From: Escherichia phage EdH4
DNA: 64,000 nt
Sequence record: MK327930.1
Strand: one strand, 5' to 3'
This document shows, piece after piece, positions 15,694-25,072 of the stretch. Numbering within the stretch: position 1 is the first letter of the stretch; every line of letters begins with the position of its first letter. The notes beneath the pieces were generated by a model. The model saw nothing but the letters and a program-made list of their open reading frames with translations. It ran no database searches and was not told where the DNA came from. The position numbers were made by a program, and so were the translations under genes.

Positions 15694-15712
15694 TTTTCAG
15701 ATCTCCTTATAC

Positions 15713-15740
15713 AAAAATGCCCCACCCTTTCGGGCAGGGC
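15713..15740 (-). terminator. Rho-independent terminator after the SSB-like gene
   Basis: Hairpin gccccaccctttcgggcagggc plus T-run on minus; the same 22-nt hairpin recurs at 25850-25871. Confidence 0.65.
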
Positions 15741-15755
15741 TATGTTAACTAAATG

Positions 15756-16982
15756 TTAAAATGGGATGTCATCATCAAAGACGTACTGTGCTGGATTCTG
15801 ATCCATCGGGTCATCTTCCTCATCATTTACAGGAGGGGCGTCTACAGTGTTTTGCTGTGGAGCGGCTTCCTGTTTGGCAGCTTGAGGTTCTTGATGGTCA
15901 GTGGACTCAGCACCGTTCTTGATCCAATCGTACAACGGCTCAGCCAGATTAGTCAAGACATCTTTTGCTTCTGCAGTAATTGCCACTGCAAAATCATCAA
16001 CTTTCGTTTTCTTGTCAATACGGCGACAAGCGTTCAACACCGCATTACCGACACTGGCACCTACTTCATCTTCAGTTCGGTTGGTGGCTTGAGCATACTC
16101 TTTCTTAAGCTCAATGGTGACTACGTGCAGTGTTTTAGCCACGCCCAGTGGGTCGTCTACCTTAAACCCGCGATCCAGGATGATCTGCAACGCATTGATG
16201 CTATGCCCCGTTTCCACACCGATAGGGTCGTAAGAGGATTTACGCTTGCCACCAGAGCCTTGAGTGCCGTTCTCTGCCTTAGGAGGATAGGCCTTGAAAC
16301 CACTGATAATGTTTCCGGTGTCTTTGTCAACAATGGCTGCAACACGACCACCTACCACCAGGTCTTTAAGCTGCTCATCAGTTACAACCATAGCACCTTC
16401 GCCAATCTTGTGGTCATTAACAGTAACCACGTTGCCAACAATCTGAGTCACATCACCATAGATGCGTAAAACGTCCTGATTGGCATTCTGCTGAGGTTTC
16501 TGCTTCTGGCCTTGTGATTGTGCACCTTGTTGCTGTTTTTGCTGCTGAGTCGCTGCTGGAGCCTCTCCTGCACCCAGCTTAACCATCTTAGCCAGTGAGC
16601 CCTTGTAATAGGTCTTACCGTTATGCTCGTTTGCCTTCAAAGGTATATTTACGATCCATCCTGGCGTTACGGTTTCCCACTTGTCATCAATCTTAACAGA
16701 GACAGAGTCTTGATGACCTGGTTTAAGCAGCTTATCACCCATGCTGATCCAGACTTCTTCACCACCTTGAAGCAGGTTATCAGAGGAATCCAGTTCAGAA
16801 ATCAGTAAAGAGATGGTGTGGCTGGATTCAATTTTCTTACCTTGCCACACAGTGGTTTTAATACCTGTTGTAGGATCAGCACCTTTGATAGGCTTGATGC
16901 TAACACGTTTAATCATGCCGTGAGCCAGTAAAACAGTTTCACGCGGATTCATTGGGTTAGCGAATTGTTGAATAACGCTCAT
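15756..16982 (-). CDS. Single-stranded DNA-binding-like protein with SSB-type acidic C-terminal tail
   Basis: C-terminus ...DDDIPF is identical to the E. coli SSB tip; Q-rich linker QQQKQQQGAQSQGQKQKPQQ; 408 aa. Confidence 0.6.
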   Translation of the reverse strand: MSVIQQFANPMNPRETVLLAHGMIKRVSIKPIKGADPTTGIKTTVWQGKKIESSHTISLLISELDSSDNLLQGGEEVWISMGDKLLKPGHQDSVSVKIDDKWETVTPGWIVNIPLKANEHNGKTYYKGSLAKMVKLGAGEAPAATQQQKQQQGAQSQGQKQKPQQNANQDVLRIYGDVTQIVGNVVTVNDHKIGEGAMVVTDEQLKDLVVGGRVAAIVDKDTGNIISGFKAYPPKAENGTQGSGGKRKSSYDPIGVETGHSINALQIILDRGFKVDDPLGVAKTLHVVTIELKKEYAQATNRTEDEVGASVGNAVLNACRRIDKKTKVDDFAVAITAEAKDVLTNLAEPLYDWIKNGAESTDHQEPQAAKQEAAPQQNTVDAPPVNDEEDDPMDQNPAQYVFDDDIPF

Positions 16983-17347
16983 TATTTGTCTCCTTGTTCT
17001 TCGTTAGTGCTTGCCGTGTGTGCGAACCCTGCTTGAATTAATTTGTCCTGAACTTGAGCCAACAGGCCCATTGCAAAACTTGTAGTCCCAGAGAGGGCCA
17101 TCAGCATATCTCGTTGTTGAGCTACCCAACCTAAGGCATAGTCCAAACGACGATATTTTTCTTCTTCACGCAAAGCTTGGAATAATTGTTCAGCCTCTGG
17201 CTGTTGTGTAAGCTCCTGAAGTCTTCCCATGAAAGAAGAAAGCACTAGCAGAAGAGACACTTGATCTTTACTTAACCCTAAGAAAAATTCTTGAGGTTGT
17301 TCTTGCTCGTTCATCGCAACCGACGTTTGATCGTTCATTTGTTCCAT
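16982..17347 (-). CDS. Hypothetical protein
   Basis: 121-aa ORF, start overlaps the upstream stop. Confidence 0.55.
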   Translation of the reverse strand: MEQMNDQTSVAMNEQEQPQEFFLGLSKDQVSLLLVLSSFMGRLQELTQQPEAEQLFQALREEEKYRRLDYALGWVAQQRDMLMALSGTTSFAMGLLAQVQDKLIQAGFAHTASTNEEQGDK

Positions 17348-19827: not shown

Positions 19828-20198
19828 TGATCGGTCTCCTTCTTGTTAAGTCTGAATACTGCAATAATAGCATTCCCAAGGTGCAGTGTCAAATCATTTC
19901 CAAGATACCACAACATTCCACGGTCATCTTTAATGAAAGGGTAACAATCCGGTGCCTTCCAGACATTGTACACCTTGCCAACCTGAAAGAAATCAGGCCC
20001 TGTTGGGATTTTGGTGCCAGGCCACACTTGAGATACCTGAACACACTCCACCTGCATAATAACAGGGATAGTCATGGATGTAAATGTTTTTGTTGGTTCT
20101 ACTACCATAAAAGTCTCCTCTTTACTCAACAACACTTCCATGTGTTGATAGTTTACATTAGTGACAATCACCCCAATTACGACCACACAAGTATTCAC
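19824..20198 (-). CDS. Small protein, paralogue family 2 (member c, longer)
   Basis: C-terminal DDRGMLWYLGNDLTLHLGN resembles the two preceding genes. Confidence 0.5.
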   Translation of the reverse strand: MNTCVVVIGVIVTNVNYQHMEVLLSKEETFMVVEPTKTFTSMTIPVIMQVECVQVSQVWPGTKIPTGPDFFQVGKVYNVWKAPDCYPFIKDDRGMLWYLGNDLTLHLGNAIIAVFRLNKKETDQ

Positions 20199-22935
20199 CT
20201 GTGATCTGGAACGGGACTCCCATCATTTTAGAAGCTTGCCAGAAGCAATGCACCACCATTTCACCCACAGGGCTCCAGATAAGTTCAAGCTTTCCGTCAT
20301 CGTTCAGGATAGGATCGTACACCGTGTTTCCGTCTCTGTCAACCACTTCGTTTCCGTCCTCATCCTTGCGTGCCTTTTTGTACTTATGACCGTCGAACAC
20401 ATGAAGTTTGGCTTCCTGCTCTGCCTTAAATGCTTCCAGTTCTTCAATTGTGTCGAAGGTGTACACAGTCTTATACTTCGGTGTGTCAGGCACTTGAAGC
20501 TGATATTCGTCATGGTAATAGATAATACGGCGAACACCTTCATCGTACCACCCACGCTTCACCATTTGGTGGTGCATGAGTATCCCAACTAAGTCACACA
20601 ACGATGCACCACCATTTTGTTGGTATGCATTAAGTAAAGAGTGTTTAGATCGGGTCCAGATGGCATGACCATCAAAAGAGTAGATAAACTTCTTACCCGT
20701 TGCTTCCCAGAATTTCTCCAGATCTTCTTTACGCCCCTTAAGACCGGGGTTGGCATCCCAAAGTGCATCGATTACCCTTTGTCCCAACTCTGGAGAGATA
20801 TCCAGCATGTCTGCAACTTTATCTTTTTGTGCCCCGTACATAACCCCATACGTGATAGGTTTACCGTCGTTACGAGACACCTCTCTACCTGCTACTTTTG
20901 TATATGCCTCAGCATTGTTTTGGTGTGCGTCCCCGTTACTTACAACATCGTAATACAGGCCGTTGTCGAACTCAAAGGCACCCCAAGCCCCGATAAGCTG
21001 CTCTAAGTTGGACCCGTCAATACCGATCTCAAAGTATCCTGGAGGAACACCCCACAGACTACGCATCTCTTTACCCATAACCACTTTAGGAGATGGTTTA
21101 GGCATGTTTGCACAAATACTGTGTTTCTGTCGGGAAGTGTTTGTTAATCCAGAACTTTTAGCAGGAAGCTTATGGTCAATCTTCAAACGTGGGTGATTAA
21201 GAAGACCAGTATCAACCTTATCCTCCTTGATTGGATCAAGGACCGATCTGCGGTTTCGCAATGATAACCACAAGACGATATCTTTAGCCATCTCTCCGTT
21301 CAATTTTTCAAGATTTGGGCATAGGTGTCCAAACGTATCTTTCAGTTGCGGAGAAGTAATAAGTGCCCTGGCTTTTCTACGTATTTTCCCGAACACTTCC
21401 TTTTTAATCCTTTCGGAGTTAGGAAAGCTTCGGAACTTGTGCACGGTTGTCTGAAACTTAGCATCAGTTTTGTTCCAGAAGTTGATAATCAGGTCACAAT
21501 ACTCTGACTCTAAAAGCTCGTCCATGTATGCATATACTCGTGCATCAACATCTGCATCAGGTAGAGCTTTCTTCTTGCTGTCTTTAGTTACATCCTTAGT
21601 TCTCCACATTGTCGGAAGCCAACCAGCACTGATCAGGTATCGCTTAATGTCGTCCTGATTGCTGATTTTCATAGGTATCTTGCAGTCAGGCATTCGCTTC
21701 TGCTGTAGATCACTTATTGCCTGATCCATCAGCTCTTTAGGTAAAGGTTGTGGTGTGGAAGTGCCCTTAATATAGCCTCTCAAGAAAGCAGCCATCTTAT
21801 CAGGGTCTTTGCAGCCCATCTCTTCACACCATTTTATCCCCATCTTACTGACATCTCCTGTGGAGGTAAATGCTCGCTTAGGTGGGGCTTTGAAATCTAA
21901 AGCGCTCATGTCCACAGGATAGCCAAGCTTATCTTTTAACCATTTCCAACCATTATTGGAGATTGTCCCATCTTGGTTAAACGGCTTTTCAGGGAACTTG
22001 GGCCGCTGAGATATTGACAACTCTTTTAAAGGGAGTTGAGGTTCAACACGATCAGCGATCTCTTTCATCCACGCATCGCAACGGTCACGTAAAGCAATAG
22101 CCCCATCTATGTCGAAATACACACCCTGACGGGCCTGCAGCTCCATCAGGAAGTGCTGCAGCATGCCTCGGCGTAATGCGTTCTTCCAGGTGATCTTCTT
22201 GAACCCTTTCGGCTTCTCTTTGGCAGGATCGTACATAAAGTTCTGCATGTCAGATTTGCCGTAGAATACACCTTTTGATTCCGCTACCAGCTCTTTCCAG
22301 AGCAGCTCCTGGATGATAACGTCCTCGAATACACGATCCACATACTTCCACAACGGAAGATCGCGCCAGTCATCAATTTGAACTTTCTGGTTACCAAGTG
22401 CGTAGCCCCATGCCATAAGGCCGTGAGGACCAACAGGCTGCATTTTCTTAGTAACCGGGTTGAATACGGAGTCAGGACAACCTTTTGGTAAAGGGCGATC
22501 AGGCCATAAGATTCGGCTCATCGCCAACGTATCAAACAGGTTAACCTGGTGGTCGTTGATAGTCCCCATGCATTTAGGATCACGGAACATATCAAAATGA
22601 ATACCGGATAATCTTTCCATCAGCATAAAGTCATAACTGTAGCAGTTATGGCAGTTCAAAGCTGTTGGTGACCAGTCGGAATTGCCTGTGAGCCAACCTT
22701 CCAACTCCGAAAAATCTGCTATGCGAACTTCAAAATCTTTATAAAGAGTTTTCTTTGCCAGAATGAAGTTCTTAGCCTTTTCTATATCCTCCTCGGAGTA
22801 GTGTGTGCGGTCATTTAGAGGAAGGAACAGCATAAAACGGTTCTTATTCAGCTCTTTAAACAGACCGCAGTGATAATAAAGATCTGGGTCTTCCAGCAAA
22901 CCGGATGACTCAAAATCGAAAGACCACATGCTCAT
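20158..22935 (-). CDS. DNA polymerase, family A, with 3'-5' exonuclease domain
   Basis: Exo I FDFESSG; motif A DGSNLEQLI; motif B RNDGKPITYGVMYGAQ; motif C YYHDEYQL; 925 aa. Confidence 0.9.
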   Translation of the reverse strand: MSMWSFDFESSGLLEDPDLYYHCGLFKELNKNRFMLFLPLNDRTHYSEEDIEKAKNFILAKKTLYKDFEVRIADFSELEGWLTGNSDWSPTALNCHNCYSYDFMLMERLSGIHFDMFRDPKCMGTINDHQVNLFDTLAMSRILWPDRPLPKGCPDSVFNPVTKKMQPVGPHGLMAWGYALGNQKVQIDDWRDLPLWKYVDRVFEDVIIQELLWKELVAESKGVFYGKSDMQNFMYDPAKEKPKGFKKITWKNALRRGMLQHFLMELQARQGVYFDIDGAIALRDRCDAWMKEIADRVEPQLPLKELSISQRPKFPEKPFNQDGTISNNGWKWLKDKLGYPVDMSALDFKAPPKRAFTSTGDVSKMGIKWCEEMGCKDPDKMAAFLRGYIKGTSTPQPLPKELMDQAISDLQQKRMPDCKIPMKISNQDDIKRYLISAGWLPTMWRTKDVTKDSKKKALPDADVDARVYAYMDELLESEYCDLIINFWNKTDAKFQTTVHKFRSFPNSERIKKEVFGKIRRKARALITSPQLKDTFGHLCPNLEKLNGEMAKDIVLWLSLRNRRSVLDPIKEDKVDTGLLNHPRLKIDHKLPAKSSGLTNTSRQKHSICANMPKPSPKVVMGKEMRSLWGVPPGYFEIGIDGSNLEQLIGAWGAFEFDNGLYYDVVSNGDAHQNNAEAYTKVAGREVSRNDGKPITYGVMYGAQKDKVADMLDISPELGQRVIDALWDANPGLKGRKEDLEKFWEATGKKFIYSFDGHAIWTRSKHSLLNAYQQNGGASLCDLVGILMHHQMVKRGWYDEGVRRIIYYHDEYQLQVPDTPKYKTVYTFDTIEELEAFKAEQEAKLHVFDGHKYKKARKDEDGNEVVDRDGNTVYDPILNDDGKLELIWSPVGEMVVHCFWQASKMMGVPFQITGEYLCGRNWGDCH

Positions 22936-22993: not shown

Positions 22994-25072
22994 TTAAAAA
23001 GGCGTTTCATCGTCCTCAAAACCAGGGACAGGGTCAGAGGATGGATCATCGTACTGTAGGTCTTCTTGTGTGTCAACAGGCTTAACAGTAGGAGTTACAA
23101 CCTTATCAGCCACAACCTTGCCCATAGGTGTTTCTACAACTGCATGCTCCTGATCCTCAAACATAGCCTGGGGTCTCCAAACAACCTCCCCACCTTCTCC
23201 GTCTGTAAACATCTGCATTTCTTTGTCCCAGTACCAATTACTGGCATCATGGAACTTACCTGTATGCGGATCCATAACTAAAGTGTCAGCAATACCTAAA
23301 GTTTTTGCTGGACGGTTTTTAAGACCTACCAGACGGACACGTCCACGAGAACGATCCACCATTTCTTCGGCCTCGACACCTATGACTACCCAACTCAACT
23401 GTTCAAGCCCAGCCGATCCTCGCAAATTCTCTTTTCGCACAGGATACCAGAAAGGTAATGGGTTACCATCCTTGTCCTTAGGGGGCACAATCTCTGTACG
23501 TTTGAGGTGAGCGATCACCAAGATAAACACGTTAAACTGCTTACAAAACGCAGCCAGTTGGGTCATAGCCATGTCCAGTTCTTTTCGCTCATCCTTAACA
23601 TTAAGCCCTGAAATTACCATGGACAGGTGATCCAGCACAATATAACGACAATGGTACAGGCAAACCATTTGCTTAAGCTTGGTAATCAACTCGTCCACTG
23701 GAATAGACCCGAAATGTTTGAACACTTTGATTTTTCCAGCTTTTGCCCATGATTGGTGAATCTCTGCGTGTTCTTGATCAGTTAAAAACTGGCTAGGATC
23801 TTCAACAAACTCTTTAACATCAAACCCTAACTGGTTTGCATACAAGGAGTTAATTGCTTCCTCTGGGTCCTCCTCAAGATGAATCATGCATAGACGATCA
23901 TCCTCTTCGTAATCATCAGCCTTTGGACATGTCGGGTCCATTAGGTATCTTGCAATACAGTGTTCCAGTTTTTTAGCTACAGTTGTTTTACCGCCCCCTG
24001 ATGGACCTGTAAGCATTACGAGTGTCCCTTTGTGCAAGCCTTTTAGCATTTTTTGCAGTTTTGGGAACTCTGCGCTGATATCTACCCCGTTGGAAGTCTT
24101 TTTCCGCAAAGATTCGATAGAGAAGTCTTCTAAATCCGATACAGCATCCGGTACATACTTAACAGGATGCCGGAACATGTTTACAATATCTTCCAGCTTT
24201 TTAGCCTTCAGCATGTCACGGATATCTTTTACACCGTCAGGATCGTTTACTTCACCAGGGTACTCTACGTGGTAAACGTTATCAGCCATCAAAAATGCTG
24301 CGATATTGTGCGTAGCCTCAACACCTTTAATGACGTGTTTTTGCTTCTCTACCTCGTTAGCTGCATCGTTATCCATTGCCAGCACAACTGTTCCATAGCT
24401 ACGGATAAACTTCTCATTGTTTGCAAAAGTATCTACTGCGTTTGCACATCCACAGTTAATTCCAACAAAAGGTAGGCAGGGTTTTCCTGCCAGATCACCA
24501 CCGTTGATAACTGCATCGATCCCGTCCTGTACCTCTTTAGCCCACTGCTTCACCTTTGCCGGGGCTTTAGCGTTGGTGAGAATCCCTTTTACTTGTATCT
24601 GATATGCAGCCTGCCATGCTGCAATAACATCACCTTCTCCCTCGCAAACGTTAATCTGCTTACGGTTGTTGGAAGATGCACACAGCTTTTGCCCAAACAT
24701 CTGGGAGTTAGCCTTTACTATGCCAACAACGGAGAAATGGCCCCTTTGCTCTTTAGGAATCGTCCAGTCACGCTTTTTGAAACCTGACAGATTTCCGTAG
24801 CGGTCGTAATATGGGAAATATGTTGCAGTGACTGTCACACCGTCTTCTTGGGACAATGCTGATCGCACACCAAAATATTGTGCAGCCATCAGACCGATAT
24901 TTTGTTGTGGGACAGGGACAATTTTAGTATTTTCTAAAACAGTCTCTACAGTTTCAACTTCTTTTTCATCACGATAGTCTCGTTTCACACTCCCCCCACT
25001 TTTATACTTAGTTGCTTTCGGGTTTGGCTCACCGAAACGGTTGTATGCAGATGCCATAAATTTACTTCCCAT
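22994..25072 (-). CDS. Bifunctional primase-helicase (TOPRIM plus DnaB-like helicase)
   Basis: TOPRIM CEGEGD and VLAMDNDAAN; Walker A GPSGGGKT; acidic C-terminal tail ...FEDDETPF. Confidence 0.85.
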   Translation of the reverse strand: MGSKFMASAYNRFGEPNPKATKYKSGGSVKRDYRDEKEVETVETVLENTKIVPVPQQNIGLMAAQYFGVRSALSQEDGVTVTATYFPYYDRYGNLSGFKKRDWTIPKEQRGHFSVVGIVKANSQMFGQKLCASSNNRKQINVCEGEGDVIAAWQAAYQIQVKGILTNAKAPAKVKQWAKEVQDGIDAVINGGDLAGKPCLPFVGINCGCANAVDTFANNEKFIRSYGTVVLAMDNDAANEVEKQKHVIKGVEATHNIAAFLMADNVYHVEYPGEVNDPDGVKDIRDMLKAKKLEDIVNMFRHPVKYVPDAVSDLEDFSIESLRKKTSNGVDISAEFPKLQKMLKGLHKGTLVMLTGPSGGGKTTVAKKLEHCIARYLMDPTCPKADDYEEDDRLCMIHLEEDPEEAINSLYANQLGFDVKEFVEDPSQFLTDQEHAEIHQSWAKAGKIKVFKHFGSIPVDELITKLKQMVCLYHCRYIVLDHLSMVISGLNVKDERKELDMAMTQLAAFCKQFNVFILVIAHLKRTEIVPPKDKDGNPLPFWYPVRKENLRGSAGLEQLSWVVIGVEAEEMVDRSRGRVRLVGLKNRPAKTLGIADTLVMDPHTGKFHDASNWYWDKEMQMFTDGEGGEVVWRPQAMFEDQEHAVVETPMGKVVADKVVTPTVKPVDTQEDLQYDDPSSDPVPGFEDDETPF

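What the first reader, a model, noticed from the sequence alone, without database searches (positions are those of the whole stretch)
15756..16982. SSB-like protein ending in the E. coli SSB tip DDDIPF
The 408-aa protein ends ...QNPAQYVFDDDIPF. The last six residues are identical to the C-terminal tip of E. coli SSB, which recruits host replication and repair proteins. It also has a Q-rich flexible linker. The protein is more than twice the size of bacterial SSB, so it may be a phage SSB or annealing protein that competes for the host SSB interactome.
Basis: partly seen in the sequence, partly recalled or inferred. Interest (0 to 1): 0.6.

Follow-up and report, generated by a model that had tools for sequence, protein, structure and literature searches.

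The report
Phage SSB-like protein with host SSB tip

Summary
Window 15756-16982 (minus strand) encodes a 408-aa protein ending in VFDDDIPF. The window is a Vequintavirus (rV5/Murica-like) genome.

AlphaFold2 gives five parts:
- a disordered Q-rich linker;
- a second small OB-like barrel;
- a highly conserved four-helix bundle;
- a disordered acidic tail.

No sequence profile (Pfam, NCBIfam, hhalign) links it to canonical SSB. It belongs to PHROG 4477 ("unknown function"), about 247 clusters at 50% identity. Most members, 149 of 192, end in acidic residues plus [IVL]PF. The gene sits in T7-type replication modules, downstream of a gp4-like primase-helicase and a family A polymerase.

The protein is 404/408 identical to Bas52_0087. 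A bioRxiv preprint (10.64898/2026.04.29.721553) describes that protein as an SSB-like trigger of the DRT10 defence, notes the FDDDIPF tip, and proposes competition with ExoI.

Three things seen here are not mentioned in the sections of that preprint that I read. The escape mutations lie in the helical bundle. The primase-helicase also ends in an acidic ...DDETPF tail, as T7 gp4 ends in an acidic tail plus F. A homing endonuclease inserts exactly after the IPF codon in 27-30 cultured relatives and masks the tip.

The parts
15756..16982 (-). Gene for the 408-aa SSB-like protein, the ortholog of Bas52_0087 (PHROG 4477). The stop codon is at 15756-15758.
16563..16982 (-). Residues 1-140: N-terminal OB fold, all beta, pI 8.8. 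Conserved residues are G22, H55, G82, G108, K123 and Y126.
16473..16562 (-). Residues 141-170: disordered Q-rich linker with 13 Q in 30 residues.
   Evidence: pLDDT 24-35; composition.
16287..16472 (-). Residues 171-232: small beta-barrel with strand-strand-strand-helix-strand-strand order, which is OB topology. It is absent from the roughly 275-aa short forms of the family.
16233..16286 (-). Residues 233-250: short basic, disordered linker.
15912..16232 (-). Residues 251-357: four-helix bundle, the best conserved part of the family (GVETGHxIN, VGASVGNAVLNAC). It holds D252 and Y351, the sites of the published DRT10 escape mutations.
   Evidence: pLDDT 90-96 with helices 253-270, 278-299, 304-321 and 328-355. 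Conservation. Escape mutations; residue identity checked.
15786..15911 (-). Residues 358-399: disordered acidic, Pro- and Gln-rich tail (pI about 4).
   Evidence: pLDDT below 40; composition.
15759..15785 (-). Residues 400-408, YVFDDDIPF: the SSB-Ct-like tip. The last seven residues are identical to those of E. coli SSB.
16990..16995 (-). Shine-Dalgarno AAGGAG six to seven bases before the ATG. The start overlaps the stop of the upstream ORF (TAATG), which suggests translational coupling.
   Evidence: read directly from the sequence
16982..17347 (-). Upstream 121-aa ORF (PHROG 7310, unknown function), probably co-transcribed and coupled with the SSB-like gene.
15710..15740 (-). Intrinsic-terminator-like hairpin GCCCTGCCC-GAAA-GGGTGGGGC followed by a T run, 15 nt after the stop.
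   Evidence: a consensus match only

Best explanation
The gene most likely encodes the phage's own replication-fork ssDNA-binding protein. It belongs to a lineage that is not detectably related in sequence to bacterial SSB, T7 gp2.5 or T4 gp32. Inferred mechanism: the basic N-terminal OB fold, probably helped by the second small barrel, binds ssDNA. The conserved four-helix bundle mediates self-association or partner contact. The long disordered acidic tail presents a C-terminal ...FDDDIPF peptide as a docking handle. Because that handle copies the host SSB-Ct, phage ssDNA coated with this protein could recruit or titrate host SSB-interacting proteins such as ExoI/SbcB, RecQ, PriA and the chi subunit. 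By analogy with T7 it probably also contacts the phage's family A polymerase. Shown here: the ORF, the tip and its conservation across the family, the predicted OB folds, the disorder, and the synteny with replication genes. Shown by others: the 99%-identical ortholog is required for activation of the DRT10 defence, and ExoI dosage opposes that activation. Inferred: ssDNA binding, oligomerisation and every tip-partner contact.
For: (1) Identity. The protein is 404/408 identical to Bas52_0087 (QXV84166.1) of phage RudolfGeigy. The preprint 10.64898/2026.04.29.721553 reports DRT10 escape mutations D252V and Y351C in that gene, an AF2 'SSB-like' architecture, the FDDDIPF tip, and weaker DRT10 restriction when SbcB is overexpressed.
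(3) Tail. The family profile matches only the tail of E. coli and Klebsiella SSB in the PDB. Of 192 family members, 149 end in [IVL]PF, with a mean of 4.6 acidic residues in positions -12 to -4.
(4) Context. The gene is co-directional with, and downstream of, a family A polymerase and a gp4-like primase-helicase, both in the window and in distant short-form relatives on small phage contigs.
(5) No other SSB. None is annotated in 1-100 kb of the 137-kb relative JLBYU08. A tblastn with E. coli SSB finds only this tail.
(6) Charge layout typical of SSBs: basic OB domain (pI 8.8) and acidic tail (pI 4.05).
Against: - Nobody has measured ssDNA binding, oligomeric state or tip-partner binding for this family.
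- hhalign against a canonical SSB profile gives 0.8% probability, and Pfam and NCBIfam give nothing.
- The best conserved domain is the helical bundle, not the OB fold, and its function is unknown.
- 27-30 cultured Vequintavirus isolates, including BASEL phage Bas50, encode a 423-aa form in which IPF is followed by APVGLQYGKSRIHAL. In E. coli the free carboxylate of the last Phe matters for partner binding (from my own knowledge of the SSB-Ct literature). The canonical tip mechanism is therefore dispensable for plaque formation in these phages.
- Expressing Bas52_0087 alone neither harms E. coli nor triggers DRT10. This argues against strong titration of essential host SSB partners.
Confidence: 0.62

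Rival explanations
1. The tail mainly serves the phage's own T7-type replisome. As with T7 gp2.5 and gp4, an acidic tail ending in Phe docks on basic patches of the phage family A polymerase. Under this reading the resemblance to host SSB-Ct reflects shared chemistry or ancient acquisition, and contacts with host partners are incidental.
For: The primase-helicase (22994-25072, minus strand) is gp4-like, with 36-38% identity to T7-like gp4 over the helicase region (Pfam). It ends ...PVPGFEDDETPF and is the only other ORF in the window with such a tail. A T7-like gp4 ends ...SWENNDF. The acidic tails of T7 gp2.5 and gp4 bind the polymerase front basic patch, and the terminal Phe of gp2.5 is essential (PMC12339929 and references in it). 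The family occurs in PolA plus primase-helicase modules in unrelated small phages.
Against: Many family members copy 9-12 residues of the enterobacterial SSB tail exactly (MDFDDDIPF in 12, EPPMDFDDDIPF in 4). That is more than a generic 'acidic plus Phe' tail requires. The DRT10-ExoI genetics point to an effect on host ssDNA metabolism. The helicase tails of distant relatives are not conserved: L006 ends ...GMNYG. This reading does not exclude the main one.
Confidence: 0.4
2. The protein is chiefly a decoy. It does not act as the replicative SSB but uses the tip to sequester host nucleases and helicases (ExoI, RecQ, RecJ, PriA) away from phage DNA or from host SSB. That would make it an anti-host or anti-defence factor.
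For: The tip is identical to the host tip. The preprint proposes that the protein competes with or displaces SbcB. The tail is long and disordered.
Against: Two OB-like domains and a conserved position in replication modules across distant phages fit a DNA-bound protein. No other SSB candidate was found in a phage that encodes its own polymerase and helicase. Expression alone is not toxic. The natural 15-residue extensions are tolerated.
Confidence: 0.15
3. It is a single-strand annealing protein or recombination mediator, the first reader's alternative, rather than an SSB.
For: T7 gp2.5 both binds and anneals ssDNA (from my own knowledge). No annealase is annotated in the related genome JLBYU08. 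The function of the helical domain is unknown.
Confidence: 0.08

Closest known systems
Bas52_0087 (QXV84166.1) of Escherichia phage RudolfGeigy, the DRT10 (UG17) trigger; bioRxiv 10.64898/2026.04.29.721553
   Same: It is the same protein for practical purposes: 404/408 identical, the same length, the same gene neighbourhood, D252 and Y351 present, and the same FDDDIPF end. The preprint already states the SSB-like prediction, the resemblance of the tip to E. coli SSB, and the idea of interference with SbcB and host ssDNA processing.
   Different: There are four substitutions (V333A, E359G, A369T, V401S), three of them in the disordered tail. The preprint describes 'two OB folds and a disordered C-terminus' and places the escape sites at a 'putative oligomerization interface'. 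Here those sites fall in a separate, strongly conserved four-helix bundle.
Bacterial SSB (Pfam PF00436, TIGR00621), for example E. coli SSB
   Same: An OB fold with its closest structural matches in this family, a disordered linker, and the C-terminal tip FDDDIPF.
   Different: No detectable sequence homology: Pfam and NCBIfam give nothing and hhalign gives 0.8% probability. It is 2.3 times longer, has a second barrel and a four-helix bundle, and the linker lies between folded domains as well as before the tip.
T7 gp2.5 together with T7 gp4
   Same: The gene works in a T7-type replication module (gp4-like primase-helicase, family A polymerase). Both the SSB-like protein and the helicase carry acidic tails ending in Phe.
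   Different: No sequence match. The only fold-level signal is a weak Foldseek hit to the phage-related DUF2815 protein 4klk (E 0.11); that DUF2815 is gp2.5-like is from my own knowledge. The tail copies the host SSB-Ct rather than the T7 tail, and the domain architecture differs.
HK620-type phage SSB that stimulates Sak4 through its last six residues (PMC5928155)
   Same: It is a phage SSB distant from the bacterial family whose C-terminal hexapeptide (NDYPPF) is the functional docking site.
   Different: That protein is a remote homolog of bacterial SSB and works with an adjacent annealase. No annealase is found next to this gene.

Membership tests
PHROG 4477 / Bas52_0087 family | Full-length sequence match to the family profile and to the described member | tested here: met
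   phrog_4477 E 4.6e-173 over residues 1-408; 404/408 identical to Bas52_0087
PHROG 4477 / Bas52_0087 family | Residues D252 and Y351, the sites of the DRT10 escape mutations, are present | tested here: met
   D252 is at least 90% conserved in alignment A1
PHROG 4477 / Bas52_0087 family | Triggers DRT10 during infection | not testable with these tools
   Reported for the ortholog only
Bacterial SSB (PF00436 / TIGR00621) | Sequence match to the family profile | tested here: not met
   No PF00436 hit for the window protein or for any of 54 family members at E <= 0.1. NCBIfam gives none. hhalign of the N-domain profile against a canonical SSB profile gives 0.8% probability.
Bacterial SSB (PF00436 / TIGR00621) | OB fold superposable on the SSB core | tested here: met
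Bacterial SSB (PF00436 / TIGR00621) | Disordered linker followed by an acidic tip ending in [IL]PF | tested here: met
Bacterial SSB (PF00436 / TIGR00621) | High-affinity ssDNA binding as a homotetramer or dimer | not testable with these tools
   No multimer prediction or biochemistry was available
T7 gp2.5-like SSB (DUF2815) | Sequence or fold match to gp2.5 / DUF2815 | tested here: inconclusive
   No Pfam hit. Weak Foldseek hit to 4klk, E 0.11, probability 0.51.
T7 gp2.5-like SSB (DUF2815) | Acidic C-terminal tail ending in Phe, in a genome with a gp4-type primase-helicase and a family A polymerase | tested here: met
Single-strand annealing proteins (RecT/Red-beta, Erf, Rad52-like, Sak, Sak4) | Sequence or fold match to any annealase family | tested here: not met

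The most novel reading that the evidence does not exclude
The acidic ...[IVL]PF end may be a shared docking code read by both the host SSB interactome and the phage's T7-type polymerase. In that case this family is an independent SSB lineage, and its conserved four-helix bundle, not the tip, is the surface that the DRT10 defence senses. Because the tip-coding DNA is so conserved, it may also have become the homing site of a family of HNH endonuclease genes. These insert exactly after the IPF codon in at least three unrelated SSB families. In doing so they turn the tip into an internal peptide, which gives natural 'tip-masked' alleles that could change host-partner recruitment and sensing by defences.
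Probability: 0.25. Interest if true: 0.55.

Novelty: already known. Interest (0 to 1): 0.33.

Why it matters
Phage SSBs are among the commonest triggers of bacterial defence systems. The SSB C-terminal tip is the hub through which the host recruits more than a dozen DNA-repair and replication proteins. A widespread, unannotated phage SSB lineage that copies this tip offers a way to ask how phages plug into, or sabotage, that hub, and how DRT10 reads the result.

That idea has already been published for the 99%-identical Bas52 protein, so the window adds no new kind of system. What it adds is a sharper map and some ready-made controls:
- a clear five-part domain layout;
- the finding that the published escape mutations lie in a helical bundle;
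- a T7-like pair of acidic tails on the SSB-like protein and the helicase;
- natural tip-masked alleles that are available in culture collections for testing.

Tried and rejected
- Pfam, NCBIfam and PDB sequence searches with the single protein gave nothing meaningful. The PIN_9, DCX and D7 hits had E around 0.1.
- Scanning 54 family members against Pfam found no shared family.
- Foldseek of the whole model against the PDB gave no hit at E <= 0.001, only weak OB folds.
- I tested whether the N-terminal and middle barrels are an internal duplication. hhalign gives 0.15% probability, so there is no support.
- I tested whether homing-endonuclease co-conversion recently carried the tail-coding DNA between unrelated ssb genes. 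The tail codons of morffagbaw, Mt1B1_P17 and the Vequintavirus alleles differ at most synonymous sites, so there is no support.
- I checked whether the 15-residue extension (APVGLQYGKSRIHAL) is a second peptide motif. It is explained instead by read-through into the ribosome-binding site and start of the overlapping endonuclease gene.
- I asked whether the short forms include phage N4 SSB or another characterised SSB. tblastn with P0056 finds only rV5/phi92-like myoviruses.
- I looked for sensitivity data on Bas50, which has the extended tip, versus Bas52 in the DRT10 preprint. The text does not give it.

Full report
**Observation.** The window holds a single long ORF at 15756..16982 on the minus strand: ATG start, 408 aa, ending ...DQNPAQYVFDDDIPF-TAA. 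The plus-strand reading is full of stops. The 238-aa plus-strand ORF that overlaps the gene is an antisense shadow. An AAGGAG Shine-Dalgarno sequence precedes the ATG. The ATG overlaps the stop of an upstream 121-aa ORF (TAATG). A GC-rich hairpin followed by a T run lies 15 nt after the stop. The last seven residues are those of E. coli SSB.

**Origin.** By tblastn the protein is 99-99.8% identical to proteins of Escherichia phages Murica, FFH2, rV5 variants and others (genus Vequintavirus). Nearly all records annotate it as 'hypothetical protein', and one (JLBYU08) as 'putative single-stranded DNA-binding protein'. It matches PHROG 4477, 'unknown function', over its full length (E 4.6e-173). 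It has no Pfam, NCBIfam or PDB sequence match.

**Anatomy.** AlphaFold2 with a 25-sequence alignment gives five parts:
- residues 1-140, all beta;
- residues 141-169, disordered;
- residues 171-232, strands in OB order (b1-b2-b3-helix-b4-b5);
- residues 237-250, disordered;
- residues 253-355, a four-helix bundle with pLDDT above 90;
- residues 360-408, disordered.

**Family.** An exhaustive profile search finds 247 clusters at 50% identity with E < 1e-3. There is a long form of about 400 aa and a short form of about 275 aa that lacks the middle barrel. The helical bundle is the best conserved part (GVETGHxIN, VGASVGNAVLNAC). Of 192 members of at least 230 aa, 149 end in [IVL]PF, 46 in DDDIPF, 12 in MDFDDDIPF and 4 in EPPMDFDDDIPF, the last twelve residues of E. 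coli SSB. The only PDB sequence similarity of the family profile is to that SSB tail. Among cultured phages the family is found in rV5-like, phi92-like (Phapecoctavirus, Justusliebigvirus) and Certrevirus-type myoviruses.

**Context.** In the window the gene lies on the same strand as, and downstream of, several replication genes:
- a family A DNA polymerase (20158-22935);
- a DnaB-type primase-helicase (22994-25072);
- a methylase;
- a PIF1-like helicase.

Distant short forms on small metagenomic phage contigs also follow a primase-helicase and a polymerase, in one case directly after a T7 Gp5.9-like gene. No other SSB is annotated in 1-100 kb of the relative JLBYU08. E. coli SSB finds only this tail by tblastn.

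**What is already known.** A literature search found the bioRxiv preprint 10.64898/2026.04.29.721553 (April 2026). It reports that escape mutants of BASEL phage Bas52 from the DRT10 (UG17) reverse-transcriptase defence map to Bas52_0087 (D252V, Y351C). Its AF2 model shows an 'SSB-like architecture' with two OB folds and a disordered C-terminus carrying FDDDIPF. SbcB (ExoI) overexpression weakens DRT10 restriction. The authors propose that the protein competes with or displaces SbcB. Bas52 is phage RudolfGeigy, and bas52_0087 (QXV84166.1) is 404/408 identical to the window protein, with D252 and Y351 conserved. Neither ssDNA binding nor tip-partner binding has been measured.

1. D252 sits just before helix 1 and Y351 near the end of helix 4 of the conserved four-helix bundle. 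The surface relevant to DRT10 is therefore this domain, not an OB fold or the tip.
2. The primase-helicase is T7 gp4-like. It ends ...PVPGFEDDETPF and is the only other ORF in the window with an acidic tail plus PF. In T7, the acidic Phe-terminated tails of gp2.5 and gp4 both dock on the polymerase (PMC12339929), and a T7-like gp4 ends ...ENNDF. The tip may therefore also, or mainly, serve the phage polymerase.
3. In 27-30 cultured Vequintavirus records, a 207-aa HNH/'endonuclease VII'-type homing endonuclease gene (PHROG 1035) is inserted exactly between the F codon and the stop. The SSB-like protein then reads through for 15 residues (APVGLQYGKSRIHAL, 423 aa), for example in Bas50 DrSchubert. 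The window carries the empty site. In Bas51 a related gene sits 8 nt after an intact stop.
4. Endonuclease genes with homologous 5' ends occupy the same position after IPF in the Phapecoctavirus short form (Mt1B1_P17) and in an unrelated mini-SSB next to an Erf gene (phage morffagbaw). One also lies 68 nt after a canonical SSB that ends IPFN (phage ECOO78). The conserved extension peptide is explained by the overlapping ribosome-binding site and start of the endonuclease gene. The synonymous sites of the tail codons differ, so recent co-conversion of the tail is not supported.

**Interpretation.** The best-supported reading is a non-canonical replicative SSB whose tail copies the host SSB-Ct (confidence about 0.6). 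The main rival, which is not exclusive, is that the tail works T7-style with the phage polymerase. A pure decoy role or an annealase role is less likely. The tolerated natural extensions and the harmlessness of expressing the protein alone argue against an essential, strongly titrating tip.

**Verdict.** The feature is real and correctly read, and it is moderately interesting biology, but it is already described. Interest is 0.33.

Noticed in passing
window 15756-15761 (empty site); L002 4225-4867; L011 1501-2124: A 207-aa HNH/'endonuclease VII'-type homing endonuclease gene is inserted exactly after the IPF codon of the SSB-like gene in 27-30 cultured Vequintavirus records. This gives a 423-aa read-through protein whose tip is internal. 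The window has the uninterrupted allele.
   Followed up: yes
L013 738-1641; L014 297-1695; L015 644-1635: Endonuclease genes with homologous 5' ends sit at the same spot after IPF in two other, unrelated SSB types: a Phapecoctavirus short form and a mini-SSB beside an Erf gene. One also lies 68 nt after a canonical SSB that ends IPFN. This suggests a homing-endonuclease family that targets the conserved tip-coding DNA. Tail codons differ at synonymous sites, so there is no sign of recent co-conversion.
   Followed up: partly
window 22994-23030 (minus strand), C-terminus of the primase-helicase 22994-25072: The T7 gp4-like primase-helicase ends ...PVPGFEDDETPF. It is the only other ORF in the window with an acidic tail ending in PF, which parallels the gp4 and gp2.5 tails of T7. 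Conservation in distant relatives is patchy: L004 ends ...NKDF and L006 does not have such a tail.
   Followed up: partly
window 16982-17347 (minus strand): The 121-aa ORF is translationally coupled to the SSB-like gene (TAATG overlap). It is PHROG 7310 with unknown function. JLBYU08 labels it 'putative ssDNA-binding protein', but nothing found here supports that name.
   Followed up: partly
relatives P0004, P0005, P0017 and others; corresponds to window 15759-15785: The tip varies within the genus: FDDDIPF, FDDSIPF, FCDDIPF (in the endonuclease-bearing alleles), FEDVPF and WDESIPF. Only the final [IV]PF is constant.
   Followed up: no
phage records MG0656xx: Seventeen records named 'Campylobacter phage', with host given as C. 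jejuni, carry this protein at 98-99.8% identity to E. coli Vequintaviruses and have similar genome sizes. The host assignment looks doubtful.
   Followed up: no
L004 7837-8001: In a distant short-form relative, a T7 Gp5.9-like gene (a RecBCD inhibitor family, PF25708) lies directly upstream of the SSB-like gene and overlaps it.
   Followed up: no
window 15753-16469 (plus strand): A 238-aa ORF lies antisense to the SSB-like gene. It has a hydrophobic, low-complexity translation and is most likely a shadow ORF.
   Followed up: no
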